Source of the DNA: an uncultured Candidatus Saccharibacteria bacterium
Lineage (GTDB): Bacteria > Patescibacteriota > Minisyncoccia > Phycocordibacterales > JACOZG01
Assembly: GCA_965230925.1 (NCBI GenBank)
Contig: OZ246403.1
Span: forward strand, 3,367-67,366
Direction: 5' to 3'
Length of the DNA: 64,000 bases
Every line of letters starts with the position of its first letter. Position 1 is the stretch's first letter. This document shows positions 248 through 63,740 of the stretch, one piece after another. A program made the translations under genes and the position numbers. Below the pieces are notes generated by a model. That model did no database searches. It saw only the letters and a program-made list of their open reading frames with translations, and was not told the DNA's origin.

Positions 248-3200
248 GTGAGAAAATCACGCCTTTTTCTGTATCTCGTTATCTTTTCTTTTATTTTTTC
301 TAGTATTTTCCCGACCGCTTTGGCCCAAGGCGTACCTACGGTTATCAGCTATCAAGGTCGTCTCGCTGATTCAAGTGGCAACCTTCTCGGTGGTTCCGGT
401 ACTACTTACTATTTCAAGTTTTCGATTTGGGATAATGCCACCGTTGGTTCTGGCTCCCAGCTTTACCCCAGTAGTTCACCAAGCTCGGTTTCTGCCACGG
501 TGCGGCAAGGTGTTTTTACTACGAGCATTGATGTTTCCGGATACAATTTTAATCGAGAAGATGCGGTTTATCTCCAAGTTGAAGCTTCGTCAGATAATTC
601 CACTTTCCAAACCTTAAGCCCACGCCAGCGTGTCACGGCCTCGGCTTTCGCTGAGCTCGCTGGCGCTGTTTCTGGTACCGGTTCTTCATCCTTTGGTACC
701 ACCACACCCATTACCAATTCTCAAGTGACCGTGGAGGCTACAACCACGACGGCTATTCCGCTCGCGCTTCGTGGCGCCTCTGGCCAAACAGCCAATCTTT
801 TTCAAATTCAAAACGCTTCTGCCTCCAATCTCTTTTATGTTAATTCAAGTGGCGCGGTATTTGCTTCTTCTACTTTGCAAGTTGCAGCAACCACTACAAT
901 TTACAGTGACTTGGTTCTTTCTGGGACGACTAAGTTTAATGGCAATACTTACACCTGGCCGAGTTCAATTGGTGCTGGTAATTTTCTTCAAACTGATGCA
1001 AGTGGTAATTTAACCTGGGCCTCGACTGGTGCTTCAGCTGGTGGTTGGACGGATGGGGGAACCACGGTAAGCCCGACGGCGTCTACAGACTTAATTTCAT
1101 TTACTCAGGGTTCTAGTACTATGTTTTCTGTTTTAGAGAACGCTTATTTTGGACGGACCGCTACAAGTACTTTTGATTCTGCTGGAAACTTGAACCTAGC
1201 TTCGACGGGAGAATATTATATTGGTGGAACGAATGTCCTTGATGCTACCACCCTCGGTTCCTCTGTTCTTGCCTCTTCCTTAACTTCTGTTGGCACTCTT
1301 TCTTCTTTAGCTGTTTCCGGTCTCTCCACCCTAACTGGCGGAATTTTCACCAACAACGCAACTTCAACTATCACCAATCTAACCACCGTCAACGCCACCT
1401 CTACCAATGCCACAACAACAAGACTTGCGATTACTGGTCTTGCTACTCCAGCGGGAACTTTTTTGGCTGTTAATCCAAATGGTCAGGTTATTGCCACAAC
1501 TACGCCGAGTGGTTCCGGCTCTGTTTCATCTGTATCCAACGCCAACGGTACTCTCACTATCTCGCCAACTACCGGTGCCGTGGTTGCTTCCCTCAATCTC
1601 GGCAACGCCAACACTTGGACGGCCCTCCAGTCTTTCTCCAGTGCCTCCTCCTCTCTCTTCTCCAACACTGGCACGGCATACTTTGGAGGAACGGCCACCT
1701 CCACATTCAACTCCGCTGGCGCTCTAACCCTCGCTTCAGCTCTCGCTGTAACCTCAGGTGGTACAGGTGCTACAAGTTTAGACAACCTGATTACTCTCGG
1801 CACTCACACCACTGGTAACTATCTTGCCACTCTTACCAATGCTGGCGGTCTTACCGTCGCTAACTCTGGATCAGAAACGGCTGGTGTCACTATTGCGATC
1901 GACACCGCTAATCCCAACACCTGGACCGGCCTCCAACAATTCACCGCCGCTTCCACCACCAGACTTTCGGTTTATGGGCCAAGTTATTTTGGTGGAACGG
2001 CGACGAGTACTTTTGACACCGCTGGTAATCTCAACCTTGCTTCTGGTGCCGCCTACTCAATTAATGGCACTAGCGTCTTAAACGCCAATACTCTTGGCAG
2101 TGGTATTACCGCTTCTTCCCTTACCAGCCTTGGTACACTTTCCAGTCTCTCCGCCTCCGGCCTCTCCACCCTAACCGGCGGAATTCTCGCGAACAACAGC
2201 ACTTCCACCATCACTAACCTCACAATGGTGAACAGCACCAGTACCAATGCCACTACTACCAACCTAGCAATCTCTGGTCTCGCTACTGCCGCCGGCACCT
2301 TCCTCGCCGTTAACCCCAATGGTCAAGTGATTGCGACCACCACTCCCACTTCTGGCATTATCACGATTGAAGAAAACAACAGCACGGTCACCTCAAGTGC
2401 CACCGTCATCGACTTCCTCGGTGCCGACTTTACGGTCACCGGTGCTTCTGGTGAAGGTGATGTCGCCATTGATTACGCCAACTCTGGTATTACCAGAGTT
2501 GGTCAGAATGAAACTGTCACTGGTAGCTGGACTTTATCTGGTCTTACCACCATGGCCCGAGCCTCCTCCTCTCTCTTCTCCAACACTGGCACGGCATACT
2601 TTGGAGGAACGGCGACTAGCACCTTCGACTCCGCTGGTATTCTCACCCTCATCAACAGTGGTCTCCATGTCTTCGACACCAATGCCAGCCACGATCTGAT
2701 CATCACTCCCGGTTCCGACTTAACCGCTGACCGCATTCTGACCATTACGACCGGTGACTCGGCTCGGACACTCACCTTAACCGGTGACACCTCTCTCACT
2801 GGCACCAACAGTGGCGACGTCACCCTCGCTGGTACGCCTGACTACATCACTATCTCTGGCCAAGTGATCACCAGAGGCACCATCGATATCGGCGATGACA
2901 CCAACTTAGCCGCCACCTATCCACTCATTCTCACCGGTGACACTCTTTCTTCTGCTCTAGCTACCACCTCAAGCAATACTTGGGCGGGGACACAAACTTT
3001 CAATGACATCGTGGTTACCGATGCTACCACCACCAGCTTCACCGTGGGCACCGATTACCTCACTGATATCACTGGTGGTGGCCTTACTCTCTCGGCTAAT
3101 GCTCTCACTGTCGATGATGTTACTCCTACCATGCTCCAAAGTGCTGACTTCGGGGATTTCACTTGCAATGGGACTAGCTGCGCTTTGGACTCTGACTCCA

Positions 3201-6200: not shown

Positions 6201-9200
6201 CGGCGCTGCAAACCTTCTCCTCTGGTCTCCTTTCTACCTCAAGTTCTACGATTACCAGTTTGACGATGGTAAACAGTACGAGCACCAGTGCCACCACCAC
6301 CAATCTCGCCATCTCTGGCCTTGCTACTGCGGCCGGCACCTTCCTCGCGGTTAACCCCAATGGCCAGGTGATTGCGACGACCACTCCCACTTCCGGTATC
6401 ATCACGATCGAAGAAAACAACAGCACCGTTACATCAAGCGCTACCGTCATCGACTTCCTCGGTGCTGACTTCACCGTTACCGGTGCTTCTGGTGAAGGAG
6501 ACATTGCCATTGATTATGCCAACTCCGGTATTACGCGAGTCGGTCAGAATGAAACTGTGACCGGTGCTTGGACTTTCTCTGGCCTTTCCTCTTTCGCTCG
6601 AGCCTCCTCCACCCTGTTCTCCAACACTGGCACAGCATATTTCGGTGGGACGGCCACCTCCACATTCGATTCATCTGGCGTTCTCACTCTAGTTAACTCC
6701 GGCCTCCACCTCTTCGATACCAACAGTTCCCACGATCTCATCATCACCCCTGGCTCCGACTTAACCGCTGACCGGATTCTCACCATCACCACTGGTGACT
6801 CGGCCCGCACTCTTACCTTAACCGGCGACACCTCACTCACTGGCACCAACACTGGTGATGTCACTCTTGCTGGTACTCCTGATTACATCACTATCTCTGG
6901 CCAAGTGATCACTAGAAACACCATCGACATTGGCGATGACACCAACCTTGCTGCCACCTATCCTCTCATCTTAACTGGCGATACTCTGTCTTCCGCTCTT
7001 GCCACCACCTCAAGCAATACCTGGGCTGGTACTCAAACCTTCAACGATATCGTGGTTACCGATGCCACCACCACCAGCTTAACTGTCGGTACTGACTATC
7101 TGACCGATATCACGGGCGGAGGTCTTACTCTTTCTGGTAATGCTCTAACCGTTGACGATGTTACTCCCACCATGCTCCAAAGTGCTGACTTTGGCGATTT
7201 CACTTGCAATGGCACCACTTGTAGTTTAGACAATGATACGGTAGCGGAAGCCGAGCTTGATCTCTCGGCTGTTACCCTCAACGACTTCACCAATGATGCT
7301 GGGTTTGTCACCACCAGTGGCGCCAATACTTGGACCAGTCTACAACAATTTGCCCGGGCTTCATCCACCATGCTTTCCGTTTATGGCCCCGCCTATTTCG
7401 GTGCGACGGCGACAAGTAGTTTCGACACGGCGGGCAATCTCAATCTTGCGAGTGGAGCGGCGTATTCTATTGCTGGAGCAAGCGTTTTGAACGCGACGAC
7501 ACTTGGTTCTAATGTTGTAGCATCTTCACTCACTTCTGTCGGTGCTCTCAATGGCGGCTCCATTACTTCTGGTTTCGGAGCAATTGATATTGGAACAGAC
7601 GGATTTACTGGTGGTAATTTAACCTTATCGGCCACCGGCACCGCCATTTCTCTGGGGGTCGGTAGCACCACCCCTTGGGGTCGCTTCTCGGTAGAACTGG
7701 ATACTTATAACCCAGCGATGGTGGTGGCCAATCAAGGGTCATCATCACCTGCTTTTTACATTGGTGGTGTAAATCAGAACGGTAGGATTGGTATTGGAAC
7801 CAAAACACCGAATGACATGCTAGAAGTGAGTGGTAATATTGCTCTAACTGATGATGGCACAGCTAAAACCATTGGGATTTATCAGGGTTCTTTTGGTACT
7901 GATTTAACCGTTAGGGCAAGTGATAGTGGTGATATTACTGCGGGACATTTAAACTTAACTGCCGGTTCAGCTGGTGGTGGCACCGGCGGTAATGTAAACA
8001 TCACCTCTGGTAATGGGTTTGCTGGTTCTGACGGTAGTATCAACTTAAGTGCTCCTACCACCGGTGGAGCAGTAAACATTGTTGGTCAGATTATGAATAT
8101 TGGTTCGGCGGGAGTTAAGATTACCGCTGATGGTGACGGGGCCCTCACGCTTCTTGGTCTTGGTGACGGAAGTGATGAAAACCTAGTAATCAACTTCGAT
8201 GATACTGCGAACGAGATAGATATCACCTCAAGTACTGGGGTCACTCGCGTAGATTACAACTCCTTAATTATTGAATCGGGAGCACTACAAGTTGACACTG
8301 CCGCCACTGGTGTAAACATTGATACTGACGGCGACGGCATGCTCATTCTTCTTGGTACTTCCACCGGCGCTGATGAAGACCTTCGCATTAACCTCGACGA
8401 TACAGCAAACGTGATCGAGTTTACTTCCACCACCGGTGCGACAGAAGCTCGATTTAGCTCTATTGGTTTGTTGTCTACAGCCTCATCTACCATTGGTGCC
8501 GGTGGAGTGACAACAGGTCTTACTGTTAGCGGTACAGCCACGACTACTCTCGATGTGGTGGTGCTTGGTCAAGACATTCAACTTGGTTCCGCTGGTGTTA
8601 AGATGACTGATGACGGCGATGGAGCCATTACTTTCCTCGGTCTTGGTAATGGTAATGACGAGAGTCTTACCCTTAACCTCGATGACACTTCTAATCAAGC
8701 CGTTTGGACCACGGGCACCAGCATTAGTCTCTGGGATCTCCAGAGTATGGGTCTCAATGCTCTTGAGCTTTCGGTTGGTACCACTTCACCTTGGGGTGAT
8801 CTCTCGGTTGAGATGGACACCGACAGCCCATCATTTGTGGTGGCAAACCAAGGTTCTACCACCCCCGCCTTCTTCATTGGTGGCGTAAACGCTAACGGGA
8901 AAATTGGTATTGGTACCGCAAGCCCTAGCGCAATTCTTGATATCACCGGGGATGTTGTTCAGACTTTCACGGGAACTACGGGAGATGCTCATACCATCAC
9001 GGCTTCTTCTCTGACCACAGGTTCAGCTCTGGTGCTTACTGGGCCTTCGGCAACTGATGAGGGTGTAGACGATGCACTTCTTAAGCTCGTGGGTAATGTG
9101 GAAAACGTTGCTAGCGGTGGGGGGCTCTTTAGTAGCACGGCAACCCTAGAAACCAATAGCGGTACGGTAGGTAATAACGTTTATGTGTCCACGGTAAATT

Positions 9201-20772: not shown

Positions 20773-20780
20773 CCTTGATA

Positions 20781-22430
20781 ATGGAAAATAAGCCCAAGGA
20801 TCGGATTTATTTTGGCGAAACGGACTTTCGCGGGAAGAAGACGCCATTTGGGATTAAGCTCGAGGATCGGATGCGCCACGTGTATGTGATCGGAAAGACG
20901 GGTATGGGTAAATCAACCGTGCTCGAGAACATGGCCATTCAAGATATTCAGAACGGCCACGGCATGGCCTTCATGGATCCACACGGAGGTACGGCGGAGA
21001 AGCTCTTGGAATATGTACCCAAGGAGCGGATTAAAGATGTGGTGTACTTTGCTCCCTTTGATCTCGATAATCCAATCTCCTTTAATGTGATGGAGAACGT
21101 GGGAATTGATCAGCGTCACCTTGTGGTCTCTGGTTTGATGAGTGCGTTTAAGAAGATTTGGGTTGACGCTTGGAGCGCTCGGATGGAATATATTCTCCAG
21201 AACACCTTGCTGGCGCTTTTGGAGTATCCCAACTCAACCTTGCTTGGGGTTAACAGAATGTTGTCTGACAAGGAGTATCGCAAGAAGGTGGTGGACAACG
21301 TCACCGACCCCGGCGTGAGATCCTTTTGGGTAGACGAGTTTGCCAAGTATACCGAGCGGATGGCGGCTGAAGCCGTGCCAGCGATTCAAAACAAGATTGG
21401 TCAGTTTACTTCCAACCCACTGATTCGCAATATTGTTGGCCAGTCTCGGTCATCATTTGATTTCCGCAACATCATGGACGAGGGGAAGATCTTGATCATT
21501 AACCTCTCGAAGGGACGGATGGGCGAGGGTAATGCCAATCTTATCGGCTCAATGCTCATTACCAAAATTTATCTCACGGCGATGTCGCGGGCGAATTTAT
21601 CTTCGGCGGAAATTCGGAAGATGCCACCGTTTTATTTCTTCGTTGATGAATTCCAGAGCTTTGCCAATGAGAGCTTTGCCAACATTCTTTCTGAGGCGCG
21701 GAAATATAAGCTCTCGCTTCACATTGCGCATCAATACATTGAGCAAATGAGCGAGGAGGTGCGCGCAGCCGTGTTTGGTAACGTTGGTTCCATTCTCACG
21801 TTTCGTGTTGGTCCCTTCGACGCTGAGGTGCTCGAGAAAATATTTTTTCCTACGTTTACCAAAGAGGACTTAGTGAATCTCGGACGCTTTCAGCTCTACT
21901 TAACTCTAATGATCGATGGTATCGGCTCGCCGCCGTTCTCGGCCACTGGTTTGCCACCAATTGCCGCGATGGGAGAAAATTATGTTCAGGAAATTATCGA
22001 GTTGGGTCGCAAAACTTATGCTAAACCGCGCGAGCAGGTAGAGAAAGAAATTGCCGATTGGCACGAGGAGGGAAAGGTTGCGAGTATTGCCACACCACCA
22101 CGGATGGCTACTGCGCCACGACCAGCTTCTCCTAGACCGCCGCTACAGACTTCGGAGCCTCCTCGATCGGCTAGAACGACCGTTGCGCCGGAAAAAATCG
22201 TTTCGTTGAGCGCTTTGCGCCAGAAGGCAGAAACAGCTAAGGCTAAAGATGTTCGGCCCAAGAATCGCGACGAGTTAAAGAAGTCACTTAAGGATATTTT
22301 GGGTAAAATTGATGAGGAAAAGAAAAAAAGTGAGCCGACACAAACGCCAAAACAATCAGTAACACAGCCAGCCCAACCTTCTGCTAATGAAATTCCGCGT
22401 GACCAACTCGAGAAGATGTTGAAGGTATGA
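20781..22430 (+). CDS. TraD/VirD4-like (DUF87 / T4SS DNA-transfer family) AAA+ ATPase with a Pro/Ala-rich C-terminal tail (alternative TTG start at 20775)
   Basis: Walker A VIGKTGMGKST. Walker B-like FYFFVDEFQSF. The overall pattern is typical of type IV coupling-protein-like ATPases. No other T4SS genes are in the window. Confidence 0.5.
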   Translation: MENKPKDRIYFGETDFRGKKTPFGIKLEDRMRHVYVIGKTGMGKSTVLENMAIQDIQNGHGMAFMDPHGGTAEKLLEYVPKERIKDVVYFAPFDLDNPISFNVMENVGIDQRHLVVSGLMSAFKKIWVDAWSARMEYILQNTLLALLEYPNSTLLGVNRMLSDKEYRKKVVDNVTDPGVRSFWVDEFAKYTERMAAEAVPAIQNKIGQFTSNPLIRNIVGQSRSSFDFRNIMDEGKILIINLSKGRMGEGNANLIGSMLITKIYLTAMSRANLSSAEIRKMPPFYFFVDEFQSFANESFANILSEARKYKLSLHIAHQYIEQMSEEVRAAVFGNVGSILTFRVGPFDAEVLEKIFFPTFTKEDLVNLGRFQLYLTLMIDGIGSPPFSATGLPPIAAMGENYVQEIIELGRKTYAKPREQVEKEIADWHEEGKVASIATPPRMATAPRPASPRPPLQTSEPPRSARTTVAPEKIVSLSALRQKAETAKAKDVRPKNRDELKKSLKDILGKIDEEKKKSEPTQTPKQSVTQPAQPSANEIPRDQLEKMLKV

Positions 22431-54661: not shown

Positions 54662-54670
54662 TGCTATAAT
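54662..54670 (+). promoter_or_regulatory. Extended -10 element TGcTATAAT 21 nt upstream of the ATG of the second giant fibre gene
   Basis: Sequence TTGCTATAAT at 54661-54670. Confidence 0.3.
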
Positions 54671-54691: not shown

Positions 54692-57600
54692 ATGAAGAGG
54701 TTTTTAGCCAAGAATATTTTTCTGTGTTTGGCAATCTGCGTCTTCGCTCTCGTGCTTACTCTTTTTCCGAGCAGGCAACTTTTTGCTGCTCCAAATTTAC
54801 AAATTAATTATCAAGGCAAGCTTACAGACTCAAGCGATGTGGCTGTTGCTGACGGTAATTACAGCATCGTTTTCCGCCTTTATACCGTAGCGAGCGGCGG
54901 ATCAAATATTTGGAGTGAGACTCAAACTGTGGCCGTAACCAACGGTCTTTTCAGTGTAATGCTTGGCACAACCACCAGTCTTGCGGCAATCGACTTCAAT
55001 CAAACCCTTTATCTTGGGGTAAATGTGGCCGCCGATGGCGAAATGACTCCACGAAAAGTTTTTGGCACGGTGCCAGCCGCTTTCGCTTCCACTTTTGTCA
55101 GCGGCTCAACCTCCACCCCATCATCTTTTGGCACCACCACGCCCATTGCTAATACTCAAGTAACCATTGAGGCCACCTCAACGACCGCGATTCCGTTAAA
55201 TATTAGAGCAAACGCTAGTCAATCAGCGAACTTGTTCCAAATTCAAAACGCCTCAGCATCCAATCTTCTTTATGTTAATTCTTCTGGTGGTTTGTTCGCC
55301 TCTTCCACCCTTCAAGTTACTGGCAATAGCACCTTTTATTCCTCAATCACTGGAACAAGTTTGACCCTTAGCGCCACCGGCACCGCCGCCTCCCTTGGTG
55401 TGGGTACTACCACTCCTTGGGGGCGCTTCTCAGTGGAGCTAGATACTTATAATCCCGCTTTTGTGGTTTCTAACCAAGGTTCTTCAACGCCAACGCTTTA
55501 CATCGGTGGTGTAAACCAGAATGGCAATATCGGCATTGGCACCACGACACCAAGCGAGAAGCTCGCCCTCTATGATGGTAATTTCCTCCAATCACCAGGT
55601 AATCCGCGTCTTGTTGGAACAATAACGAGCAGCAATACCAACATGAACGATGTGGCTGTGCAGGGAAAATATGCCTACGCAATTAGCGGCACAAGCCGGC
55701 TCTATGTTTACGATGTGTCTAATTCTGCGTCCCCGGCGCTTGTTGGTTCTTCCGCCGCTTTGGCTGGAGATGCTGTGGTTGTGGCTGGGCGTTATGCGTA
55801 TACAGTCGATGCATCGGGGGGCACTTTTAGAATCTTTGATGTTTATAATCCAAGTAACCCCGTTCTTGTTTCTTCTCTTTCTACTGGTGCTTTTTCTTCA
55901 CCGCGGGATCTTGTGGTTTCTGGTTCCTATGCTTATGTTGGGGCTTCTGGTGGACTTATGATTATCAACGTAGGGAACCCCGGAAAACCAGTTACTGTTG
56001 CTACGGCCGCCGCCGGTGCCGACATTGATAATGTGAGAATCCAGGGTAATTATGTTTACCTTTACGATGATGGTTCTGGGGGAACAAACATTATTGATGT
56101 TTCTAACCCAACTAATCCATCGTACATTACTCAGATCGGCACAGCTTCAACCCACGATGTTTCAGGGCGTTATTTTTATGTCGCGGACGATGTTAGCCAG
56201 CAATTCCAGATTTATGATATCTCTAATCCCGCTTCTGCTTCTTTGGTTGGTTCGATAAGTAGTGCCGTAAGTTCAACAGCGCACAACGGAGAACTCATTG
56301 TGGCTGGTCGTTACGTTTACCTTGCTGACCCTGGTAATGACACGATAAAAGTTTTTGACGTGGCTTCCTCCACGGCCCCGGTTCTTGTTGGCTCAACCAG
56401 CGTCACTGGAACTGATTCCCTATCTCTCGCGGTGGCGGGGCGCCATCTCTATGTTCTCAACGACAACTCCGCTGCCAATACCAGCCTTTCCATTTTTGAT
56501 ATTTCCGGTGTTGAAGCCGCTTCGCTTACGGCGCACTCTCTTGAAGCGGGTCGTCTGCAAGTTCGAGAATCGGCCGCCATTCAAGGTTCACTTTCTGTTA
56601 GCACTTCGCTACAAGTTGGAACCGGCGGCATCTTCAGTGCCGGACCAATTGCTGTTAGTGTGGCCTCTTCTACCGAGGGTAGCCCCGTTTCGGCCTCCTT
56701 CCAGGGTCGAGTTTCAATAGGCACTTCAACCCCGTCTTCAATTTTAACTATTTGGGGGCAAAGTACTGGCTCGACCCCTAATCTCATTATTGCCAATAGC
56801 GCTTCCACCACTCTGTTCACGGTTTTAGACAGTGGTAATGTCGGCATCGGCACTACCTCTCCTTACGCTAAGCTGTCGGTGTTAGGAGAAACAGTGTCGA
56901 CTTATTTTACCGCCACCTCTACTACGGCAACATCTACCTTCGCTGGCGGTTTAAGTGTGGGTACTAATTCTAGTGTTGCCAATTTTACTTTGTCTAATGC
57001 AATTGACAATAGTTTTCCTGTCGCTTTTATCTACCGCAGTGATTCTGGGCAAGATGTTGGCATTGACGAGGAACTTGGGGCGATTTATTTCGATAGTAAT
57101 GATGGTGGAGTAAGTTCCGTTGACGCTTCTGTCGTTCTAAAAAGTTTTGCTTCTGGTGGCCACACCACAACCAGAAAAGGTGGGTATTTCACTATTTCAA
57201 CCAAGCCATACGGAGCGTCAAATAATGCTTCTGCTGCTACCGAGAGGTTTAGAATTACTGATACTGGCAGTGTTGGTATCGGCACTACCTCTCCTTACGC
57301 TAAACTTTCAGTGGTTGGTCCGGTCGTTGCCGAATATTTTCATGCTACTTCTACTACCGCCACCTCCACTTTCAGTGGGGCTATCGCCTTGCCTGCCACC
57401 ACGGCTGCTGGCGCCGGAGTCGTTACTGTTGCTGGGACAAGGTTTTTGCATAATTACGGTACGGGTAGTGTGTTTTTGGGCTCCGAGGCCGGGAATCTTA
57501 CTAGTAGCGGTTTTGGGCAAAACGTTGGTGTTGGTTACCAGTCCCTAACCCAAGTAACTACAGGATATCAAAACACTGCCGTTGGCTATGATTCCATGTC

Positions 57601-59992
57601 TGGAATTTCTACCCATCAGGGGAATACGGCAATTGGTACCGGATCAATGAGTGGTTATACCGGGTCTGGTAGTGTTGCCGTTGGCTTGTCGGCCCTCTCC
57701 TCTGCTTCTGGTAACAACAACATAGCGATTGGTTCTACTTCGCTTAATTCTAATTCGGGGACTAATAATATTGGTCTCGGTACTAGTATTTTTACTACCA
57801 ACACAGGCTCCTACAATATTGGTTTGGGAGAAAACGTGTTGGACACTAATTCCGGCTCTAGAAACATTGCCATCGATGGCCTTGTTACTGGTTTTGGAAA
57901 CAGTGGTTCTTATAACCTTGCTCTTGGTGAGGGCTCTCTTAGCACTTCTGCTACACAGTCAGGTTCCTTCAATATCGCCTTGGGGGCAAACGCACTAAAC
58001 GCAAACACAAGTGGCGCGAGCTCTACGGCCATTGGTTACTACGCCCTTGGGGCCAACACCACGGGTGCCTCCAGTACGGCTGTGGGTATTAATGCCGGTC
58101 GAATCAACACCACCGGTAGCAAACTTACCTTTCTCGGCGCAAACTCGGGCTATACCGGTTCTTCTGACGGTCTCACCAATGCCACGGCTATTGGCTTCAA
58201 CGCGCAAGTTACGCGGAGTAATAGTGTAATTCTTGGTGGCACCGGCTCCGATCAGGTTAATGTTGGTATCGGCACCACTTCTCCTTACGCTCGACTCTCG
58301 GTGGTTGGGGAAACTGTTTCTAGTTATTTTACAGCCACATCAACGAGCAACAATTCTTCCTTTGCTGGTAATGTCGGCGTCGGTACCACCTCACCTTATG
58401 CCAATTTGTCAGTTTCTACTTCTGATACTACCGATGATATCGCGGTTATTTACGGTTCCTCCCTTACCACTGGCTCTGCTCTTGTGCTCAACGGTCCCTC
58501 CGATGCCACGGCGGGGGTTACCGATTCTTTGTTTAAGGTGAGCGGGGATGTTGGCACCACTACCAGCACTGGACTTATAAGTTCCAACGCCATATTCGAC
58601 AACAACTCCAACTATTCTACTTCAATTAACATTTTTGCTTCTACTACGAACACCATGTCCGGTGCAACCAACGTCGGGTCGGGCGCCTACGGTATTTATA
58701 ATTCCATAAATTCTACGGCCACAGACTACCCAAGTCTCGCCGTTATTAGACAGTACGGCATATTTAGTTCTAGTACCAAGTATGTTGATGATGATTCTGT
58801 TAATTTTAATAATTACGCTGTTTATGGTACAGCCACTAACCTAAACGAAAGTGGTGGCAATCCTTATGCTTATGGCGGTTACTTTACCGCTCTCAACGAT
58901 ACGGGCGGCACTGAATCTCGGGCATATGGTGTTTATGCTGATGGCTCTGGTGGGGACACAAATTACGGTCTTTATGCCGTGGCTTCCGGTGCCGGTAGCA
59001 ATAATTATGCTATCTATGCTACTGCCTCCGACGCTACCAACAATTATGCTGGCTATTTCAATGCCGGAAATGTTTATGTAAATAGTGGCAACCTTGGAGT
59101 CGGCACTAGTTCACCGTGGCGGAAGTTGTCGGTAGACGGGACGGTTGGCTTTGCTAATTTAACCACCAATGTGGGTGCAGCAGCCGCTTCTCTTTGCCTG
59201 TCTTCTACTAATGAGGTTACCCGAAACACAGAGAACGAAACTTGCCTTACTTCTTCAGAGCGCTATAAACACAACATTGAGTCTTTGGCGGCCGGGTCCG
59301 CTCTAGAGACCTTGCTTCAGTTGCGTCCTGTTACTTTTGAATACAACAATGCTCCCGGAACAAGATATGGTCTCATTGCCGAAGAGGTTGAAGATGTTGA
59401 TGACTTGCTTGTCAGTTACGACGATGAGGGTTTGGCTCATGGTGTTCGCTATGTGACCATGGTCCCTCTCCTTACTCAAGCAATCCAAGAACTTTCAGCT
59501 CGTTTGGATGAGAATATTGCTGGGGGTCAGATTAATCCAGTAATTATGAGTAGTAACTTTGACCCAGACAACCTGGTTGCCCTACGTCAGGCTGCTGGGA
59601 ATTGGAGCCTTGATGAGAATGGTTTGTTGTTTGTGAAAGAGGTTCATGCGGAGAAGTTGTGTCTTGGTGACGTGTGTGTAGATGAGAGTGATTTGCGTTC
59701 GCTCTTGCGCAAGAATGATTTACTCGATGAAGATAACGAGAATCATGGTGGTAACAACGAAGAGGAGGAACCTGAACAGAATGAAGATATTGATGATGAA
59801 GAAAATGATGAGGAGGAACCAACAGAAAACGAAGAAGAAAATCAAGATGAACCAGAAGTGATCGAAGAACCAGAGGTAACAGAAGAACCGGCCGATGATC
59901 CGCCGGCAGAAGATGAGACTCCGAGCGAACCAGATCCGGAGCCTGAACCAGAACCTGAGCCCGAGTTGCCGGAAGGAGACGGTGGGGTATAA
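54692..59992 (+). CDS. Giant secreted fibre/adhesin protein 2 (about 1766 aa). It shares an N-terminal domain with 248..10894. It contains LVIVD-type beta-propeller repeats (about 55600..56520) and phage tail-fibre-like Gly/Asn-rich repeats (about 57420..58230). A C-terminal peptidase S74 intramolecular chaperone domain (about 59200..59500) is followed by an acidic E/D/P-rich tail.
   Basis: Signal peptide present. NYQGKLTDSS...FGTTTPIANTQVTIEATSTTAIPL...ANLFQIQNASASNLLYVNSSG is shared with giant 1. SSERYKHNIESL...LIAEEVEDVDDLLV...MVPLLTQAIQEL forms the chaperone domain. PEPEPEPEPE tail. Confidence 0.85.
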   Translation: MKRFLAKNIFLCLAICVFALVLTLFPSRQLFAAPNLQINYQGKLTDSSDVAVADGNYSIVFRLYTVASGGSNIWSETQTVAVTNGLFSVMLGTTTSLAAIDFNQTLYLGVNVAADGEMTPRKVFGTVPAAFASTFVSGSTSTPSSFGTTTPIANTQVTIEATSTTAIPLNIRANASQSANLFQIQNASASNLLYVNSSGGLFASSTLQVTGNSTFYSSITGTSLTLSATGTAASLGVGTTTPWGRFSVELDTYNPAFVVSNQGSSTPTLYIGGVNQNGNIGIGTTTPSEKLALYDGNFLQSPGNPRLVGTITSSNTNMNDVAVQGKYAYAISGTSRLYVYDVSNSASPALVGSSAALAGDAVVVAGRYAYTVDASGGTFRIFDVYNPSNPVLVSSLSTGAFSSPRDLVVSGSYAYVGASGGLMIINVGNPGKPVTVATAAAGADIDNVRIQGNYVYLYDDGSGGTNIIDVSNPTNPSYITQIGTASTHDVSGRYFYVADDVSQQFQIYDISNPASASLVGSISSAVSSTAHNGELIVAGRYVYLADPGNDTIKVFDVASSTAPVLVGSTSVTGTDSLSLAVAGRHLYVLNDNSAANTSLSIFDISGVEAASLTAHSLEAGRLQVRESAAIQGSLSVSTSLQVGTGGIFSAGPIAVSVASSTEGSPVSASFQGRVSIGTSTPSSILTIWGQSTGSTPNLIIANSASTTLFTVLDSGNVGIGTTSPYAKLSVLGETVSTYFTATSTTATSTFAGGLSVGTNSSVANFTLSNAIDNSFPVAFIYRSDSGQDVGIDEELGAIYFDSNDGGVSSVDASVVLKSFASGGHTTTRKGGYFTISTKPYGASNNASAATERFRITDTGSVGIGTTSPYAKLSVVGPVVAEYFHATSTTATSTFSGAIALPATTAAGAGVVTVAGTRFLHNYGTGSVFLGSEAGNLTSSGFGQNVGVGYQSLTQVTTGYQNTAVGYDSMSGISTHQGNTAIGTGSMSGYTGSGSVAVGLSALSSASGNNNIAIGSTSLNSNSGTNNIGLGTSIFTTNTGSYNIGLGENVLDTNSGSRNIAIDGLVTGFGNSGSYNLALGEGSLSTSATQSGSFNIALGANALNANTSGASSTAIGYYALGANTTGASSTAVGINAGRINTTGSKLTFLGANSGYTGSSDGLTNATAIGFNAQVTRSNSVILGGTGSDQVNVGIGTTSPYARLSVVGETVSSYFTATSTSNNSSFAGNVGVGTTSPYANLSVSTSDTTDDIAVIYGSSLTTGSALVLNGPSDATAGVTDSLFKVSGDVGTTTSTGLISSNAIFDNNSNYSTSINIFASTTNTMSGATNVGSGAYGIYNSINSTATDYPSLAVIRQYGIFSSSTKYVDDDSVNFNNYAVYGTATNLNESGGNPYAYGGYFTALNDTGGTESRAYGVYADGSGGDTNYGLYAVASGAGSNNYAIYATASDATNNYAGYFNAGNVYVNSGNLGVGTSSPWRKLSVDGTVGFANLTTNVGAAAASLCLSSTNEVTRNTENETCLTSSERYKHNIESLAAGSALETLLQLRPVTFEYNNAPGTRYGLIAEEVEDVDDLLVSYDDEGLAHGVRYVTMVPLLTQAIQELSARLDENIAGGQINPVIMSSNFDPDNLVALRQAAGNWSLDENGLLFVKEVHAEKLCLGDVCVDESDLRSLLRKNDLLDEDNENHGGNNEEEEPEQNEDIDDEENDEEEPTENEEENQDEPEVIEEPEVTEEPADDPPAEDETPSEPDPEPEPEPEPELPEGDGGV

Positions 59993-60022
59993 TATCAGCA
60001 GTAATAAATTATTCAAATAACT

Positions 60023-61117
60023 ATGAATGATATGAACATAAAACAATTACCAGCCTTGTTTGTTACGGCGGGCTTACTAATTTTGGTTATTTTTTCGGTC
60101 GGAAGAGCTTCTAGTCCTATCCCAGAAGATTCCCCCTATGGGGCGGCCGTTTCTGAAATAAACGCATCCAATAAAGACGTGCTTTCTCCGGCCAATTATT
60201 CATACTTACCGCCGGGCACAAACAATCAAACTTTGCGTCACAATGGTCGTGGATGGGTCAGTTCTAGTAATCTTTCTAATGACGGTAGAAATGTTTCTTT
60301 GACAGGGAACTTGTTTCTTCCTAATACGACCACTGATGGCGAGGGAACGGATCTTTCCGGTGTAATCAAGGTGGGTGGTAGCCGGTTTCTTCATTCTTAC
60401 GGATCAGAAAACACTTTTTTGGGTATAAATGCTGGAAATTTTGGCATGGTTGGTGGCGGAAATACCGCCATTGGAACCAATGTTTTGTCCCAAAACAATT
60501 TTGGTGGTAGTAATACGGCGGTCGGGGCCCTTTCTTTGAGTGAAACTTCGGGCGGGGACAGGAACTCAGCCTTTGGATATCGCGCCTTGAAAAAAACTGG
60601 TGGTTTAGCCAATTCTGCGTTTGGTGCTTATGTCATGGAATCAAATGTGACCGGTAGCGAAAACACCGCCATGGGTGAACGTGCTTTGTATTTAAATGTT
60701 AACGGCAGTGGAAACACCGCTGTAGGTAAAAGGTCCTTGAATGTAAATTTGGGGGATATGAATACTGCCGTCGGTCATCATTCTGGGCTATCCAATAATG
60801 GGGGAAGTAAAAATACTTTTTTGGGCTATGGAGCAGGGGCTAGCTCTGCTTCTAACCTAATAAACGCCACAGCAATTGGTTACAACGCTCAGGTTGAGCA
60901 GAACAACACTCTTGTGTTGGGTGGAACCAGTGAAGATGCGGTGAAGGTTGGTATCGGCACCGCTGTACCTAGAGCCGAACTTGATGTGGTGGGAGAAGTA
61001 AGGATTTCTAGTGTTAGTGGTGATGGAACAGGGAAGTTGCTTTGTGTGAAGCCGGAGGGAACAATCGGCACATGTTCTAATGCTCCAGACACAAGCGGTT
61101 CCTGCTCCTGTAATTAG
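60023..61117 (+). CDS. Shorter paralogous surface protein (364 aa) with an N-terminal anchor or signal and tail-fibre-like Gly/Asn repeats; no chaperone domain
   Basis: VGGSRFLHSYGSENTFLGINAGN...ATAIGYNAQVEQNNTLVLGGTSEDAVKVGIGT parallels VAGTRFLHNYGTGSVFLGSEAGN...ATAIGFNAQVTRSNSVILGGTGSDQVNVGIGT in giant 2. Confidence 0.6.
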   Translation: MNDMNIKQLPALFVTAGLLILVIFSVGRASSPIPEDSPYGAAVSEINASNKDVLSPANYSYLPPGTNNQTLRHNGRGWVSSSNLSNDGRNVSLTGNLFLPNTTTDGEGTDLSGVIKVGGSRFLHSYGSENTFLGINAGNFGMVGGGNTAIGTNVLSQNNFGGSNTAVGALSLSETSGGDRNSAFGYRALKKTGGLANSAFGAYVMESNVTGSENTAMGERALYLNVNGSGNTAVGKRSLNVNLGDMNTAVGHHSGLSNNGGSKNTFLGYGAGASSASNLINATAIGYNAQVEQNNTLVLGGTSEDAVKVGIGTAVPRAELDVVGEVRISSVSGDGTGKLLCVKPEGTIGTCSNAPDTSGSCSCN

Positions 61118-61142
61118 ATTCGTTTTTTAACCCAAAAATAAA

Positions 61143-63509
61143 ATGATGGAAAACAAGCAAATGTTACCAGGCGTAGATGCACCACAAGGCAAAGTTCTTT
61201 TTCTCTTTATTTTGCTTTTCGTTCTCATTCTTGGTACCGGTTTTCTGTTTTCTTCGAAAGGCGGTCAAACTGAAGTGGTGGCGGAGGTGGCGGCAGCCAA
61301 CTTGTCTTTAAATAAGACAGTAGAAGAGGAAAGGGAGTTTTCGGACGAAGAAAAAACCTTAATTGAAATAAGTGGTCAACTTGGAGCAGAAGTTAAGAAA
61401 ACACAGGAGCTTTCAGCGGGTTCTCCTGATAAGAAGGCGGGGGAGAGAGTTGTTGCTGACATGGAGGCAAAGCGTAGAACCCTAATAGACAGTTTGGCGG
61501 ACAATCTTTCACCAGAAGCCATGTTTGCCGTGGCAGACAAAGAAGTGGATGAGGAGGAAATAATTTCTGGCCGGCTTAGCGTGACCTACTTTGATGATTT
61601 TGATAATAATGGTGAAAGTAAGTACGTCTACAAGCTAAAACAAGCCGGGAAGGATCCAATAGAATTAGCCACCATTGTTCCTCTAAAGGCTGAAGCTGGG
61701 TCAACGGTAAGATTGGAAGGATACTATTTCGGAGATCGTTTTTTTGTTGACCCTCGTCTTGATGATCCGATCATTTCTCAACCGATAACCAATCTTGGGG
61801 CCACAGGGGCGCAAAAAACCCTTGCCATCTTGGTAAACTTCGAAGACACGGGACCAGTACCATTCCCCGCAGAAAATGCTCAGGGACTTATTTTCGGGGG
61901 TCAATTTGCTCAGTTTTTTCAAGAACAGTCTTATGGTCGCATTAGCTTCGATGGAAGTGTGGTTGGTTGGTTAACTTTGCCTCGCGCCAGTGATTGCGAG
62001 TGGCCAACCTTTGGTGATGGCGGTGAACTAGATAATATGGTTCTCGCGGCTGTTCCAAACATCGGTGTTTATAACCGAATTATTATTTTGTCTGATCATA
62101 ACTGTGTGAACTCCGGTTTTTCAACCATTGGTAAGGATTTCATTCAATTGGGTAATCAGGAATACCACTTTTCCGTGGCTCAAATTGGGCATCTTACTAC
62201 TTATGACCAGCCCTCTGTTTGGGGTACGCAACCTTTTCCTTGGACCAACTTGGACTACTTACTAAGCCATGAGATGGGTCACAGCCTCGGTCTTTACCAC
62301 GCTAACGGATTAGATTGCCATGAGAGCGCTCTTTACGGTGAGAATTGTGAAAATGTTGAGTATGGCAATCTTTATGATGTTATGGGGGTGGAGGGTTATT
62401 CACTCCACTTCAGTAGTTTTTATAAAGAACGGTTGGGTTGGATCAAGCCGTCGGAGATTTTGACTGTTGACAGGTCTGGTAATTACAAAATAAACAACCT
62501 TGAATCTCTGGCTGGTTACAAGGCGGCAAAACTGAAGGTCCAGGGCCACAATCGCTACCCTTTTTACCTTGAGGCAAGAAGGCCGACCGGGTTTAATGCT
62601 AATCTGGGTGACTCTTCTTTCGTCGGCACTCAATCAGGCTTATTTGTTACTAAGATTATTTCCGACTCAAATCTGTATGAGAATTTTCCCAACTCAATTT
62701 TGGCGTACTTATTAGACCTAAGCCCCACCAGCGCAAGTTGGAATCAAGACATTGAGAACCCCGTTCTAAATAGTTCAATTGGCTTGGTAGATAAGGCCGA
62801 AGGTTTCAAAGTTGGCCCCGTCAGACAGGTTGTTGGAAATCAGGTTATCTTTTCCGTTAGTGTGGGTAATCCGGTTTGCGTTAGAAACAAAGCTTCTTTG
62901 GATGATTTTACTTTCGTTAATAATTTTGCGGCAGGTTCTGAGGGCTTCCTTGAGTTTTCGTTTAGAAACAGAGACTCTTTCTTGTGTGGTGAAGGAGAGT
63001 TCGGGGTAGATGTTGATTACCCTGTTGGCTGGTCAATCTCTAATCTTGATTCCAAGGTTGTTTTGGGTGCTGACCAACTTTCCTTCCAAGAGCCAATCTT
63101 TCAGGTACCGCCAGACACCGTTCCTGGTACTTACAACTTTATTATTAGGGTAACCAATCTTTCGAATAGTTTGGTAAGCACTCTTAATGTTCCCGTTACG
63201 GTTTATACAGCTCCCCAGGCCATGTCCCTCTCTCCAGAGTCTGCTCCAAGTGGTACAACGGTGTTTTTGAACGGTGTTGGTATACCAGAGACTGGTGCTT
63301 ATGTGGTTTTCGAAAACGATCAGGTTTACGCTGGAACCATTGCCCCGGCAATGAGCGATTCCCAGTTAAAAGTTGTGGTTCCGGAAAACGGTTTCGGAGG
63401 TGAATGTCAGTGTGAGATACCTCTACCATCGGGAGAATATACTGTCAAATTCTCTGCTAGTGGCGTTTGGAGCAATCAAATTCCTTTTACTGTAGAGGAA
63501 GGTGATTAA
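61143..63509 (+). CDS. Secreted zinc metalloprotease with a metzincin-type HExxHxxGxxH motif and a C-terminal IPT/TIG-like beta-sandwich domain
   Basis: N-terminal hydrophobic segment. LSHEMGHSLGLYHANG. C-terminal SPESAPSGTTVFLNGVGIPETGAYVVFENDQVYAG resembles IPT/TIG. Confidence 0.55.
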   Translation: MMENKQMLPGVDAPQGKVLFLFILLFVLILGTGFLFSSKGGQTEVVAEVAAANLSLNKTVEEEREFSDEEKTLIEISGQLGAEVKKTQELSAGSPDKKAGERVVADMEAKRRTLIDSLADNLSPEAMFAVADKEVDEEEIISGRLSVTYFDDFDNNGESKYVYKLKQAGKDPIELATIVPLKAEAGSTVRLEGYYFGDRFFVDPRLDDPIISQPITNLGATGAQKTLAILVNFEDTGPVPFPAENAQGLIFGGQFAQFFQEQSYGRISFDGSVVGWLTLPRASDCEWPTFGDGGELDNMVLAAVPNIGVYNRIIILSDHNCVNSGFSTIGKDFIQLGNQEYHFSVAQIGHLTTYDQPSVWGTQPFPWTNLDYLLSHEMGHSLGLYHANGLDCHESALYGENCENVEYGNLYDVMGVEGYSLHFSSFYKERLGWIKPSEILTVDRSGNYKINNLESLAGYKAAKLKVQGHNRYPFYLEARRPTGFNANLGDSSFVGTQSGLFVTKIISDSNLYENFPNSILAYLLDLSPTSASWNQDIENPVLNSSIGLVDKAEGFKVGPVRQVVGNQVIFSVSVGNPVCVRNKASLDDFTFVNNFAAGSEGFLEFSFRNRDSFLCGEGEFGVDVDYPVGWSISNLDSKVVLGADQLSFQEPIFQVPPDTVPGTYNFIIRVTNLSNSLVSTLNVPVTVYTAPQAMSLSPESAPSGTTVFLNGVGIPETGAYVVFENDQVYAGTIAPAMSDSQLKVVVPENGFGGECQCEIPLPSGEYTVKFSASGVWSNQIPFTVEEGD

Positions 63510-63740
63510 AAAGACATACGGCTTAAAATAAGGCTTTGTCCTTTATAAACTACCCTCTGGCGGCTCACCATCGGGGGTAGTTTCCTTGCCATTTGGGAGG
63601 GATTCTGGTAGTTATTAAGTCCAGGTTCTGATCCTTTTACTCGTCCATATGCCTGTAAGGCTTTTGGCGGGGGCAATAGTTCCTTGAAAACGACTCTTTT
63701 GAGTTTTCGTATCTTCGTTTGTATTTAGCTAAAACAAGTT

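What the first reader, a model, noticed from the sequence alone, without database searches (positions are those of the whole stretch)
54692..63509. Second fibre locus: giant paralog with LVIVD beta-propeller insert, a short third paralog and a metzincin-like protease
Giant protein 2 keeps the shared N-terminal and S74 C-terminal ends but carries different cargo in the middle. This cargo comprises LVIVD-type beta-propeller repeats (about 55600..56520) and tail-fibre Gly/Asn repeats. The pattern suggests modular shuffling of receptor-binding domains between paralogs. It is followed by a 364-aa paralog that carries only the tail-fibre repeats, with no chaperone domain. This short paralog could be a decoy, a tip or adaptor, or a remnant. 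Next comes a secreted HExxHxxGxxH metalloprotease with an IPT/TIG domain, which could process or remodel the fibres or act on host surfaces.
Basis: partly seen in the sequence, partly recalled or inferred. Interest (0 to 1): 0.6.

Follow-up and report, generated by a model that had tools for sequence, protein, structure and literature searches.

The report
Patescibacterial surface fibre genes plus metalloprotease
Three neighbouring genes in the chromosome of an ultrasmall (Patescibacteria/CPR) bacterium encode a giant phage-tail-fibre-like surface protein with a beta-propeller insert, a short stand-alone fibre and a zinc protease; the domain calls are right, but this type of protein is already abundant in such genomes and no evidence ties the protease to the fibres.

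Summary
ORFs 54692-59992 (1766 aa), 60023-61117 (364 aa) and 61143-63509 (788 aa) exist as described. Giant 2 has seven LVIVD repeats (Pfam E=5.9e-28) and a Peptidase_S74 chaperone domain (E=6.9e-11) with its Ser1521/Lys1526 dyad intact. It shares only its N-terminal (~40% identity) and C-terminal (~42%) parts with the 3548-aa giant 1. The short protein shares just the 16-17-residue NTAxG repeats. It is a complete gene, found identical in 5 independent assemblies. The protease carries HEMGHSLGLYH, which is invariant in its family, and is M6/InhA-like by sequence and fold. Its C-terminal TIG domain shows up only at profile level.

The context is a cellular Patescibacteria chromosome (SecA, PepF, MurB, GatB), not a phage. 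All three proteins have N-terminal export signals. In the orthologous locus of a relative, the LVIVD and repeat blocks sit in swapped order, which supports module shuffling. The fibre-protease adjacency occurs in only 3 of 80 protease loci, and all three are orthologous, so a functional link is unsupported. More than 800 LVIVD and/or S74 giants already exist in databases. This is a new member of a known, uncharacterised kind. Interest is moderate to low.

The parts
54662..54670 (+). Extended -10-like box TGCTATAAT, 22 nt upstream of the giant 2 ATG. Candidate promoter of the block.
   Evidence: Read directly from the sequence. The consensus scan of the region was at chance level overall, so this is only a candidate.
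54692..59992 (+). Giant 2 CDS, 1766 aa: a modular secreted fibre-like protein.
   Evidence: The same 1766-aa product is called in independent assemblies.
54692..54790 (+). Signal peptide (aa 1-33, ...RQLFA|APNLQINYQGKL).
   Evidence: Sequence. Giant 1 has the equivalent ...TALA|QGVPTVISYQGRL. The cleavage site is inferred, not predicted by a tool.
54791..55381 (+). Conserved N-terminal module (aa 34-230), shared with giant 1 and with many signal-peptide-bearing 'tail fiber domain-containing' proteins. Proposed cell-proximal end.
   Evidence: 40-44% identity to giant 1. 65-78% identity to the fibres of orthologous loci. Present in Bacteroidota-type small homologues P0024, P0026 and P0085. No Pfam hit. 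No tblastn hit in 50,697 phage records.
55634..56527 (+). Seven LVIVD repeats (aa ~315-612), inferred to form a 7-bladed beta-propeller.
   Evidence: PF08309 E=5.9e-28. Seven regularly spaced blade motifs. Only 37% identical to the corresponding block of orthologue P0144.
56528..57370 (+). Middle modules (aa 613-893), bounded by GIGTTSPYAKLSV junction motifs.
   Evidence: Junction motif at aa 717 and 861. The DNA copies at 56828 and 57260 are 81% identical.
57371..58312 (+). NTAxG (Gly/Asn) repeat block, period 16-17 aa (aa 894-1207), ending in ...NATAIGFNAQVTRSNSVILGGTGSDQVNVGIGTTSPYARLSV.
   Evidence: PHROG tail-spike family phrog_4636, E=3.4e-11. 68% identity to P0144, where the block lies at a different position.
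58313..59149 (+). Pre-chaperone stalk shared with giant 1 (aa 1208-1486).
   Evidence: Part of the 42%-identity C-terminal alignment with giant 1.
59150..59509 (+). S74 intramolecular-chaperone / self-cleaving domain (aa 1487-1606). The predicted cleavage Ser1521 codon is at 59252-59254; Lys1526 is the partner.
   Evidence: PF13884 E=6.9e-11. The profile spans aa 1487-1606. In 127 aligned S74 domains the Ser column is 126/127 Ser and the Lys column 125/127 Lys.
59510..59731 (+). Post-chaperone conserved module (aa 1607-1680, ...WSLDENGLLFVKEVHAEKLCLGDVCVDESDLRSLL). Function unknown.
   Evidence: 108 cluster representatives at E<=1e-3, almost always 100-170 aa from the C-terminus. No Pfam model hits it.
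59732..59989 (+). Acidic, Pro/Glu-rich low-complexity tail (aa 1681-1766).
   Evidence: Sequence. The tail after the S74 domain is 36% Asp+Glu.
60023..61117 (+). Short fibre-like protein CDS, 364 aa. It has an N-terminal hydrophobic helix (aa 6-27), an NTAxG repeat block (aa ~93-325), a GIGTAVPRAELDV joint, and a 39-aa Cys-rich cap (C341, C351, C361, C363). It has no chaperone domain.
   Evidence: Identical in 5 assemblies. PHROG tail-spike family, E=2.8e-20. 70 phage records share the repeats.
61143..63509 (+). Metzincin-type zinc metalloprotease CDS, 788 aa. It has an N-terminal TM/signal helix (aa 16-32), a helical segment (68-131), a beta-sandwich (139-213), a catalytic domain (~222-530) and two Ig-like domains (555-690 and 692-788).
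   Evidence: AlphaFold model with pLDDT 81.
62268..62300 (+). Zinc-binding motif HEMGHSLGLYH (aa 376-386). The candidate Met-turn Met414 is encoded at 62382-62384.
   Evidence: H376, E377 and H380 invariant; G383, H386 and M414 at least 90% conserved in 19 homologues.
63216..63506 (+). C-terminal TIG-like beta-sandwich of the protease (aa 692-788).
   Evidence: All-beta segment at pLDDT ~90. TIG PF01833 in 6 of 19 aligned homologues. The family profile matches CGTase domain D, E=3.3e-6. Not detected in the single sequence.
63548..63582 (+). Stable hairpin 39 nt after the protease stop codon, followed by UUUCCUU. Candidate end of the transcription unit.
   Evidence: Fold of 63510-63610: -34.9 kcal/mol, z=-2.9, 0 of 200 shuffles as stable. 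The gaps between the three genes are only 30 and 25 nt.

Best explanation
This is a tightly spaced block (gaps of 30 and 25 nt) in the chromosome of a Patescibacteria (CPR) bacterium. It encodes three exported envelope proteins.

(1) Giant 2 is a modular surface fibre. After Sec export and removal of a 33-aa signal peptide, the C-terminal S74 intramolecular-chaperone domain nucleates trimer folding of the upstream shaft. It then cuts itself off at Ser1521 using the Ser1521/Lys1526 dyad. This releases the chaperone together with a conserved ~70-aa module and an acidic tail. The mature fibre of about 1490 aa keeps the conserved N-terminal module as its cell-proximal end. It displays a 7-bladed LVIVD propeller and an NTAxG-repeat shaft as binding cargo. 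Modules are separated by a recurring GIGTTSPYAKLSV joint, and they have been re-ordered or replaced between orthologues and paralogues.

(2) The 364-aa protein is an independent short fibre. It is built from the same repeat type, has its own signal/anchor helix and a Cys-rich cap, and lacks a chaperone.

(3) The 788-aa protein is a membrane-anchored or secreted M6/InhA-like metzincin with Ig-like/TIG domains. It belongs to a family found in Patescibacteria and DPANN archaea, and it sits next to the fibre by descent.

The most likely role of the fibres is adhesion to host cells or other surfaces.

Shown: the domain content, the catalytic and motif residues, the export signals (by sequence inspection), the chromosomal context, the module permutation and the limited synteny.

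Inferred: trimerisation, self-cleavage, orientation on the cell and the adhesion role.
For: - Domains: LVIVD E=5.9e-28 and S74 E=6.9e-11. The S1521 and K1526 columns are conserved in 126/127 and 125/127 S74 domains.
- Cellular context: SecA, CYTH and PepF lie upstream. PG-binding and PKD proteins, MurB and GatB lie downstream.
- The N-terminal module follows a signal peptide in both giants and in many homologues. It is absent from 50,697 phage records. The repeats do occur in phage tail proteins.
- 867 homologues were found. Many are Patescibacteria giants with LVIVD and/or S74, some named 'tail fiber domain-containing protein'.
- Module permutation against orthologue P0144, and different cargo in the L014 and L015 orthologues and in giant 1.
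- The joint motif recurs 6 times at DNA level.
- The short protein is a complete gene in 5 assemblies, and chaperone-less stand-alone relatives exist.
- Protease: TIGR03296 M6 domain E=2.2e-13. The zinc motif and Met414 are conserved. Reprolysin and M10 models hit 4-10 of 19 members. Foldseek matches the InhA2 zymogen 4yu5/4yu6, E~2e-7 over more than 700 columns. A profile hit to 4yu5 has E=3.9e-5.
- Very large surface proteins of Patescibacteria are already discussed as host-interaction candidates (PMC13059738).
Against: - There is no experimental or expression data.
- No recognisable anchoring device is present in giant 2 (no LPXTG, no TM segment after the signal peptide, no S-layer or PG-binding domain). 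How the fibre stays on the cell is therefore unexplained, and the N-terminal module has no known fold or Pfam model.
- The 160-aa extension after the chaperone is not a feature of phage S74 proteins, and its role is unknown.
- The monomer model of the short protein is only moderately confident (pLDDT 68) and matches no solved fold.
- Giant 2 has no sequence match in the PDB.
- No paper in the searched library links LVIVD or S74 proteins to Patescibacteria biology.
Confidence: 0.6

Rival explanations
1. The three genes form one functional system. The metzincin matures, trims or releases the fibres (for example by removing the acidic tail or shedding fibres), or it digests the host surface where the fibres attach.
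For: - Same strand, gaps of 30 and 25 nt, and a single strong hairpin only after the protease.
- The fibre-then-protease order is kept in the three closest relatives (protease identity 51%, 41% and 35%), even though the fibre's modules and the genes between them differ.
- Proteases are duplicated in tandem next to the fibre in L012 and L014.
Against: - 77 of the 80 best protease loci in species-representative genomes have no fibre module or S74 domain within 10 kb. Examples are given.
- The three positive loci all share SecA upstream, so they represent one inherited arrangement and not independent associations.
- S74 domains cleave themselves and need no partner protease (established for phage endosialidase; my own knowledge).
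Confidence: 0.15
2. The fibres are not adhesins for a host cell. Instead they are general envelope or extracellular-matrix components: an S-layer-like coat, protection against phage or grazers, or substrate or particle capture.
For: - Pfam describes LVIVD repeats only as cell-surface repeats of unknown function (my own knowledge).
- Two giant fibres flank a large glycan-biosynthesis cluster (NeuB, glycosyltransferases, Wzy_C). This fits general envelope building.
- The same N-terminal-module, repeat and S74 architecture is common in free-living Bacteroidota.
Against: - Rapid module permutation and strong divergence of the LVIVD block between orthologues fit a specificity determinant better than a structural coat.
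- Nothing in the data discriminates directly between the two readings.
Confidence: 0.2
3. The locus is a prophage remnant, and the fibre genes are degraded phage tail-fibre genes.
For: The S74 domain and the NTAxG repeats match phage tail fibre, tail spike and virion structural families.
Against: - Housekeeping genes lie on both sides, and no other phage gene is present.
- Both giants and the short protein start with export signals.
- The N-terminal module has no hit in phage genomes.
- The locus is syntenic in related genomes.
- The ORFs are intact and very long.
Confidence: 0.04

Closest known systems
Patescibacterial giant LVIVD/S74 proteins, annotated 'tail fiber domain-containing protein' (e.g. 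P0146 from Candidatus Vogelbacteria; P0144 from MAG GCA_964361825.1)
   Same: - Signal peptide plus the same N-terminal module.
- LVIVD propeller, NTAxG repeats, S74 domain and a post-chaperone tail.
- P0144 sits in the orthologous SecA-PepF...MurB-GatB locus.
   Different: - The module order is permuted: LVIVD comes before the repeats here and after them in P0144.
- The LVIVD block is only 37% identical.
- The window locus additionally has the 364-aa short fibre, where P0144's locus has a second protease.
Phage proteins with the C-terminal intramolecular chaperone (MEROPS S74): endosialidase of coliphage K1F, the L-shaped tail fibre of T5, and others
   Same: A C-terminal PF13884 domain with the Ser-x4-Lys dyad follows a repetitive shaft. 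The expected mechanism is trimer folding followed by self-cleavage (my own knowledge of the family).
   Different: - The protein is cellular and Sec-exported.
- Its N-terminal module is absent from phages.
- It is 1766-3548 aa long.
- The chaperone is not the extreme C-terminus; it is followed by a 160-254-aa extension.
Small (450-640 aa) 'tail fiber domain-containing' / 'trimeric autotransporter adhesin'-labelled proteins of Bacteroidota and others (e.g. P0024, P0091, P0105)
   Same: Same NTAxG repeat block with the start motif (...RFLHxYG..N.F.G..AGN) and the end motif (...NATAIG.NA.V..SN.LVLGGTG...V.VGIGT..P). They are the best hits of the 364-aa protein.
   Different: - Most carry S74 after the joint. 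The window's short protein instead ends in a 39-aa Cys-rich cap.
- It also lacks the INYQG N-terminal module.
Immune inhibitor A (InhA2, MEROPS M6, 'thuringilysin' metzincins; PDB 4yu5/4yu6)
   Same: - Multi-domain secreted zinc protease.
- Partial match to the M6 domain model TIGR03296, E=2.2e-13.
- Full-length Foldseek match, E~2e-7.
- HExxHxxGxx motif plus a conserved downstream Met.
   Different: - Its score of 50.8 bits is far below the curated cut-off of 110.8.
- The third zinc-ligand position is His. I recall that M6 has Asp there, but this was not tested here.
- It has an N-terminal TM helix and TIG-type C-terminal domains.
- The family is restricted mainly to Patescibacteria and DPANN archaea.
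Trimeric autotransporter adhesin head repeats (YadA_head, PF05658)
   Same: Gly/Asn-rich short repeats in a surface fibre. JGI labels several homologues as TAA.
   Different: - YadA_head scores only 16.8 bits against a cut-off of 25.
- The repeat period is 16-17 aa, not about 14.
- There is no membrane-anchor barrel.
- The model matches no solved fold.

Membership tests
Peptidase S74 / intramolecular chaperone auto-processing domain proteins | C-terminal domain matching PF13884 above the gathering score | tested here: met
   42.7 bits against a cut-off of 22, aa 1521-1570. A 128-sequence profile spans aa 1487-1606.
Peptidase S74 / intramolecular chaperone auto-processing domain proteins | Catalytic Ser and Lys five residues apart at the cleavage site | tested here: met
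   S1521-S-E-R-Y-K1526. The two columns are Ser in 126/127 and Lys in 125/127 aligned domains.
Peptidase S74 / intramolecular chaperone auto-processing domain proteins | Homotrimer formation and autoproteolytic release of the chaperone | not testable with these tools
   Needs recombinant protein or metaproteomics.
Peptidase S74 / intramolecular chaperone auto-processing domain proteins | Short protein 60023-61117 carries the domain | tested here: not met
   No PF13884 hit and no hit with the S74 profile.
LVIVD-repeat beta-propeller proteins (PF08309) | Tandem LVIVD repeats above the gathering score | tested here: met
   96.4 bits against a cut-off of 20.2, E=5.9e-28. Seven blade motifs spaced 40-47 aa.
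LVIVD-repeat beta-propeller proteins (PF08309) | Closed propeller fold | not tested
Metzincin clan MA(M) | Extended zinc motif HExxHxxGxx(H/D) | tested here: met
   HEMGHSLGLYH at aa 376-386. H376, E377 and H380 are invariant; G383 and H386 are at least 90% conserved in 19 homologues.
Metzincin clan MA(M) | Conserved Met-turn downstream of the motif | tested here: inconclusive
   Met414 is at least 90% conserved, 28 residues after H386. Its position under the zinc site could not be inspected in the model.
MEROPS M6 (immune inhibitor A) | Match to the curated M6 domain model at its cut-off | tested here: not met
   TIGR03296 scores 50.8 bits against a cut-off of 110.8, with E=2.2e-13. The fold resembles InhA2. 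I therefore treat it as M6-like, not as a member.
MEROPS M10 / M12 (matrixins, reprolysins) | Match to Pfam models at the gathering score | tested here: not met
   Reprolysin_5 scores 19.2 against a cut-off of 27. Peptidase_M10 scores 16.7 against 24.
IPT/TIG domain (PF01833) | Match of the protease C-terminus to the TIG model | tested here: inconclusive
   No hit for the single sequence even at E<=5. 6 of 19 aligned homologues hit TIG, best 3e-16. The family profile matches the CGTase TIG-type domain D, E=3.3e-6. The model shows a confident beta-sandwich at aa 692-788.
Trimeric autotransporter adhesins | YadA-type head repeats and a C-terminal membrane-anchor barrel | tested here: not met
   YadA_head scores 16.8 bits against a cut-off of 25. 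No anchor domain is present. The repeat period is 16-17 aa.
Phage tail fibre (virion component) | Encoded in a phage or prophage among structural genes | tested here: not met
   Flanked by SecA, PepF, MurB and GatB. The proteins carry export signals. The N-terminal module is absent from phage records.

The most novel reading that the evidence does not exclude
The block is a host-range cassette of an episymbiotic Patescibacterium. Trimeric fibres would be assembled outside the cell by a phage-derived self-cleaving chaperone. Their binding modules (LVIVD propeller, repeat shafts, short accessory fibres) would be swapped at the conserved GIGTTSPYAKLSV joints to track host surfaces. The adjacent CPR/DPANN-specific metzincin would open the host envelope at the attachment site. 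The conserved post-chaperone module plus acidic tail would be a previously unrecognised export or assembly signal.
Probability: 0.15. Interest if true: 0.65.

Novelty: new member of a known kind. Interest (0 to 1): 0.35.

Why it matters
How ultrasmall Patescibacteria recognise and hold on to their hosts is largely unknown, and giant surface proteins are the usual suspects. This locus gives a clean, well-delimited example of a phage-type self-assembling fibre used by a cell. It shows direct evidence of module re-ordering between orthologues, and it has an uncharacterised conserved module after the chaperone. That makes it a reasonable target for expression and binding studies. It does not reveal a new kind of system, because hundreds of similar proteins are already in databases.

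Tried and rejected
- NCBIfam gave nothing for giant 2 or the short protein.
- phmmer of giant 2 against PDB sequences gave no hit.
- The AlphaFold monomer model of the short protein (pLDDT 68) had no Foldseek match in the PDB; the best E was 6.7. The YadA-like beta-roll idea could therefore not be confirmed. I dropped it in view of the 16-17-aa period and the sub-threshold Pfam score.
- PF26696, listed for many homologues, is not in the local Pfam copy: P0024 returned no family. Its identity stays unknown.
- From memory, I suspected that the L014 fibre ends in a Peptidase_G2-type chaperone. Pfam gave no hit at E<=0.001, so I make no such claim.
- Literature searches for LVIVD or S74 together with Patescibacteria found nothing specific.
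- The promoter and terminator consensus scans were at chance level. Only the extended -10 box and the post-protease hairpin, both read by eye, are offered as candidates.
Taxonomy beyond 'Patescibacteria, near Vogel-/Taylor-/Paceibacteria-type relatives' was not resolved.
- The prophage reading was rejected on context.

Full report
**What is there.** The three ORFs named in the finding exist exactly as described:
- 54692-59992: 1766 aa. The start is the ATG; a TTG lies three bases upstream.
- 60023-61117: 364 aa.
- 61143-63509: 788 aa.

All three are on the + strand and are separated by only 30 and 25 nt.

**Context.** The window is a piece of a cellular chromosome, not a phage.
- Upstream lie an ABC1 kinase, SecA, a CYTH protein and oligopeptidase F.
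- In longer assemblies carrying the identical genes, the downstream genes are a PG-binding protein, two unknowns, a PKD protein, MurB, an amino-acid kinase and GatB.
- Homologues of all three proteins come overwhelmingly from Patescibacteria/CPR MAGs: Vogel-, Taylor-, Nomura- and Paceibacteria-type.
- The window's own proteins are on a 716-kb NCBI contig without a name.

**Giant 2 anatomy.**
- Pfam gives LVIVD (96.4 bits, E=5.9e-28) and Peptidase_S74 (42.7 bits, E=6.9e-11).
- Seven blade motifs, spaced 40-47 aa, lie at aa 324-582 (positions corrected).
- The S74 profile covers aa 1487-1606. The cleavage motif is S1521-SERY-K1526. Among 127 aligned S74 domains those two columns are Ser in 126 and Lys in 125, so the catalytic dyad is intact.
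- The protein starts with a signal peptide (...QLFA|APNLQINYQGKL). The conserved N-terminal module follows directly. The same layout is seen in giant 1 and in many homologues.
- A GIGTTSPYAKLSV-type motif recurs at aa 235, 280, 717, 861, 1191, 1228 and 1468. Six copies are recognisable at DNA level, at 61-81% identity. The motif marks the module boundaries.
- Aa 894-1207 are NTAxG repeats with a 16-17-residue period. They match phage tail-spike and virion structural PHROG families.
- After the chaperone come a conserved ~70-aa module and an acidic Pro/Glu tail.

**Paralogue and orthologues.**
- Giant 1 (248-10894, 3548 aa) shares the N-terminal ~220 aa (40-44% identity) and the last ~500-600 aa, S74 included (38-42%). 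Nothing in between matches, and giant 1 has no LVIVD.
- The nearest relative's locus (L009/L012, GCA_964361825.1) is orthologous: SecA...PepF-x-fibre-protease-protease-...-PKD-MurB-GatB.
- Its 1594-aa fibre P0144 aligns with giant 2 in permuted order:
  - G2 1-141 with P0144 1-141, 78% identity.
  - G2 859-1288 (repeats) with P0144 193-634, 68%.
  - G2 235-895 (LVIVD and middle) with P0144 651-1339, only 37%.
  - G2 1222-1677 with P0144 1097-1516, 65%.
- Two further orthologous loci (L014, L015; SecA upstream) have fibres with the same N-terminal module and repeats but no LVIVD. The L014 fibre also has no detectable S74.
- So 'same ends, shuffled cargo' is directly supported.

**The short protein.**
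- It is a complete gene and is identical in five independent assemblies. The assembly-break refutation therefore fails.
- It has an N-terminal hydrophobic helix (aa 6-27).
- Its repeat block has the family's characteristic start and end motifs and the GIGT joint. It then ends in a 39-aa cap with four Cys. It has no S74 domain.
- It is 33% identical to giant 2's repeat block. It is 36-48% identical to proteins from other phyla.
- Of 3209 hits, most are proteins of 450-640 aa with S74. Chaperone-less stand-alone versions with similar short caps also exist (P0029, P0128).
- Its monomer model is only moderately confident and matches no solved fold.
- It is absent from the orthologous loci. The slot between fibre and protease is variable there:
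  - a second protease in L012;
  - nothing in L014;
  - a NosD-type beta-helix protein plus an AAA_14/DUF4143 ATPase in L015.

**The protease.**
- HEMGHSLGLYH (aa 376-386) is conserved across the family. So are two Cys (C392, C402) and Met414.
- The best model match is the M6 domain TIGR03296 (E=2.2e-13), though far below its cut-off.
- M10, M12 and M43 models match weakly. Reprolysin models hit 9-10 of 19 homologues.
- The AlphaFold model (pLDDT 81) shows an N-terminal TM helix, a helical segment, a beta-sandwich, the catalytic domain and two Ig-like domains.
- Foldseek finds the InhA2 zymogen over more than 700 columns at E~2e-7.
- TIG is not detected in the sequence itself. It is detected in 6 of 19 aligned homologues, and through the family profile against CGTase domain D.
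- The family has at least 480 loci in species-representative genomes. Among the 80 best, these are mainly Patescibacteria and also DPANN archaea.

**Is the protease tied to the fibres?** I searched the 80 best protease loci (up to ±10 kb) with giant 2 modules by tblastn and with a 128-sequence S74 profile.
- Only L012, L014 and L015 contain a fibre gene.
- Those three loci are the same SecA-linked orthologous region.
- Three more distant homologues, inspected gene by gene, sit among unrelated genes.
- The adjacency is therefore explained by inheritance within a small clade. A functional link is neither supported nor excluded.

**Mechanism proposed.**
1. Giant 2 is exported by Sec.
2. The C-terminal chaperone drives trimer folding and then cleaves itself at Ser1521.
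3. The mature fibre displays the propeller and repeat modules.
4. The conserved N-terminal module is the cell-proximal end.
5. Adhesion to a host or another surface is the likely role.

Only the sequence-level elements of this scheme are shown. Trimerisation, cleavage, orientation and function are inferences from the phage S74 paradigm and from the general view that giant Patescibacteria surface proteins mediate host contact (PMC13059738). How the fibre is retained on the cell is unexplained.

**Comparison and novelty.**
- LVIVD and/or S74 giants with this N-terminal module are common in Patescibacteria (867 hits), and some are already auto-annotated as tail fiber domain-containing proteins.
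- Some members of the protease family are labelled 'M6 family metalloprotease-like' by JGI.
- The locus is thus a new member of a known but uncharacterised kind.
- The more interesting details are these:
  - the demonstrable module permutation between orthologues;
  - the recurring joint motif;
  - the long post-chaperone extension (median 187 aa in giants against 36 aa in small homologues), whose conserved core occurs near the C-terminus of 108 protein clusters and has no Pfam model;
  - the Patescibacteria and DPANN distribution of the metzincin family.

Noticed in passing
window 59510-59731 (giant 2 aa 1607-1680): A conserved ~50-70-aa module follows the S74 chaperone, with core W.LDE.G.L.VKEV..EKLC.G..CVDE..L..LL. 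It is found in 108 cluster representatives at E<=1e-3, almost always 100-170 aa from the C-terminus of proteins of very different lengths. No Pfam model hits it. It is kept in the L014 fibre, which has no detectable S74. Patescibacterial giants have long post-chaperone tails (median 187 aa) whereas small homologues do not (median 36 aa).
   Followed up: partly
window 55517-55575, 56828-56886, 57260-57318, 58250-58308, 58361-58419, 59081-59139: Six DNA copies (61-81% identical) encode the joint motif (N)VGIGTTSPYAKLSV at module boundaries of giant 2. The same joint ends the repeat block of the short protein. They may serve as recombination points for module exchange.
   Followed up: partly
L012 7893-12205; L014 9749-14500; L015 7358-9738: In the orthologous loci of relatives, the slot between fibre and protease varies. 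L012 has a second metzincin paralogue (31% identity). L014 has nothing between fibre and protease but carries two tandem proteases. L015 has a NosD/Beta_helix secreted protein plus an AAA_14/DUF4143 ATPase. The window's 364-aa short fibre is unique to it.
   Followed up: yes
window ~23500-47100: Between the two fibre loci lies a surface-glycan cluster whose central part (about 24-34 kb) has low GC (37-40% against 45-52% in much of the rest of the window). It encodes an epimerase, several GT1/GT4 enzymes, a GT47-like enzyme, a Polysacc_synt flippase, an FkbM methyltransferase, a cytidylyltransferase, NeuB+SAF (nonulosonic acid synthase), PMT_2, GT2 and Wzy_C fused to TPR repeats. It could glycosylate the Ser/Thr-rich fibres.
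   Followed up: partly
window 20775-22430: A 551-aa protein has type IV secretion coupling-protein / HerA-like ATPase domains (T4SS-DNA_transf, TrwB_AAD_bind). It sits next to Mur ligases.
   Followed up: no
loci L049, L052, L061, L077, L080, L082: Relatives of the metzincin are encoded in DPANN archaeal MAGs (Woesearchaeota, Pacearchaeota) as well as in Patescibacteria. This suggests a protease family shared by the two groups of ultrasmall symbionts.
   Followed up: no
window 59195-59251 (giant 2 C1502, C1518) and giant 1 C3188, C3204: A pair of Cys 16 residues apart lies immediately before the S74 cleavage serine. It is conserved between the two giants and present in about a fifth of aligned S74 proteins. 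It may form a disulfide loop at the fibre tip.
   Followed up: no
window 248-10894 (giant 1): The middle of giant 1 gives very strong PHROG matches (E down to 3e-84) to phage head-decoration, virion-structural and tail-fibre families, and it has no LVIVD. Its post-chaperone tail differs from that of giant 2.
   Followed up: partly
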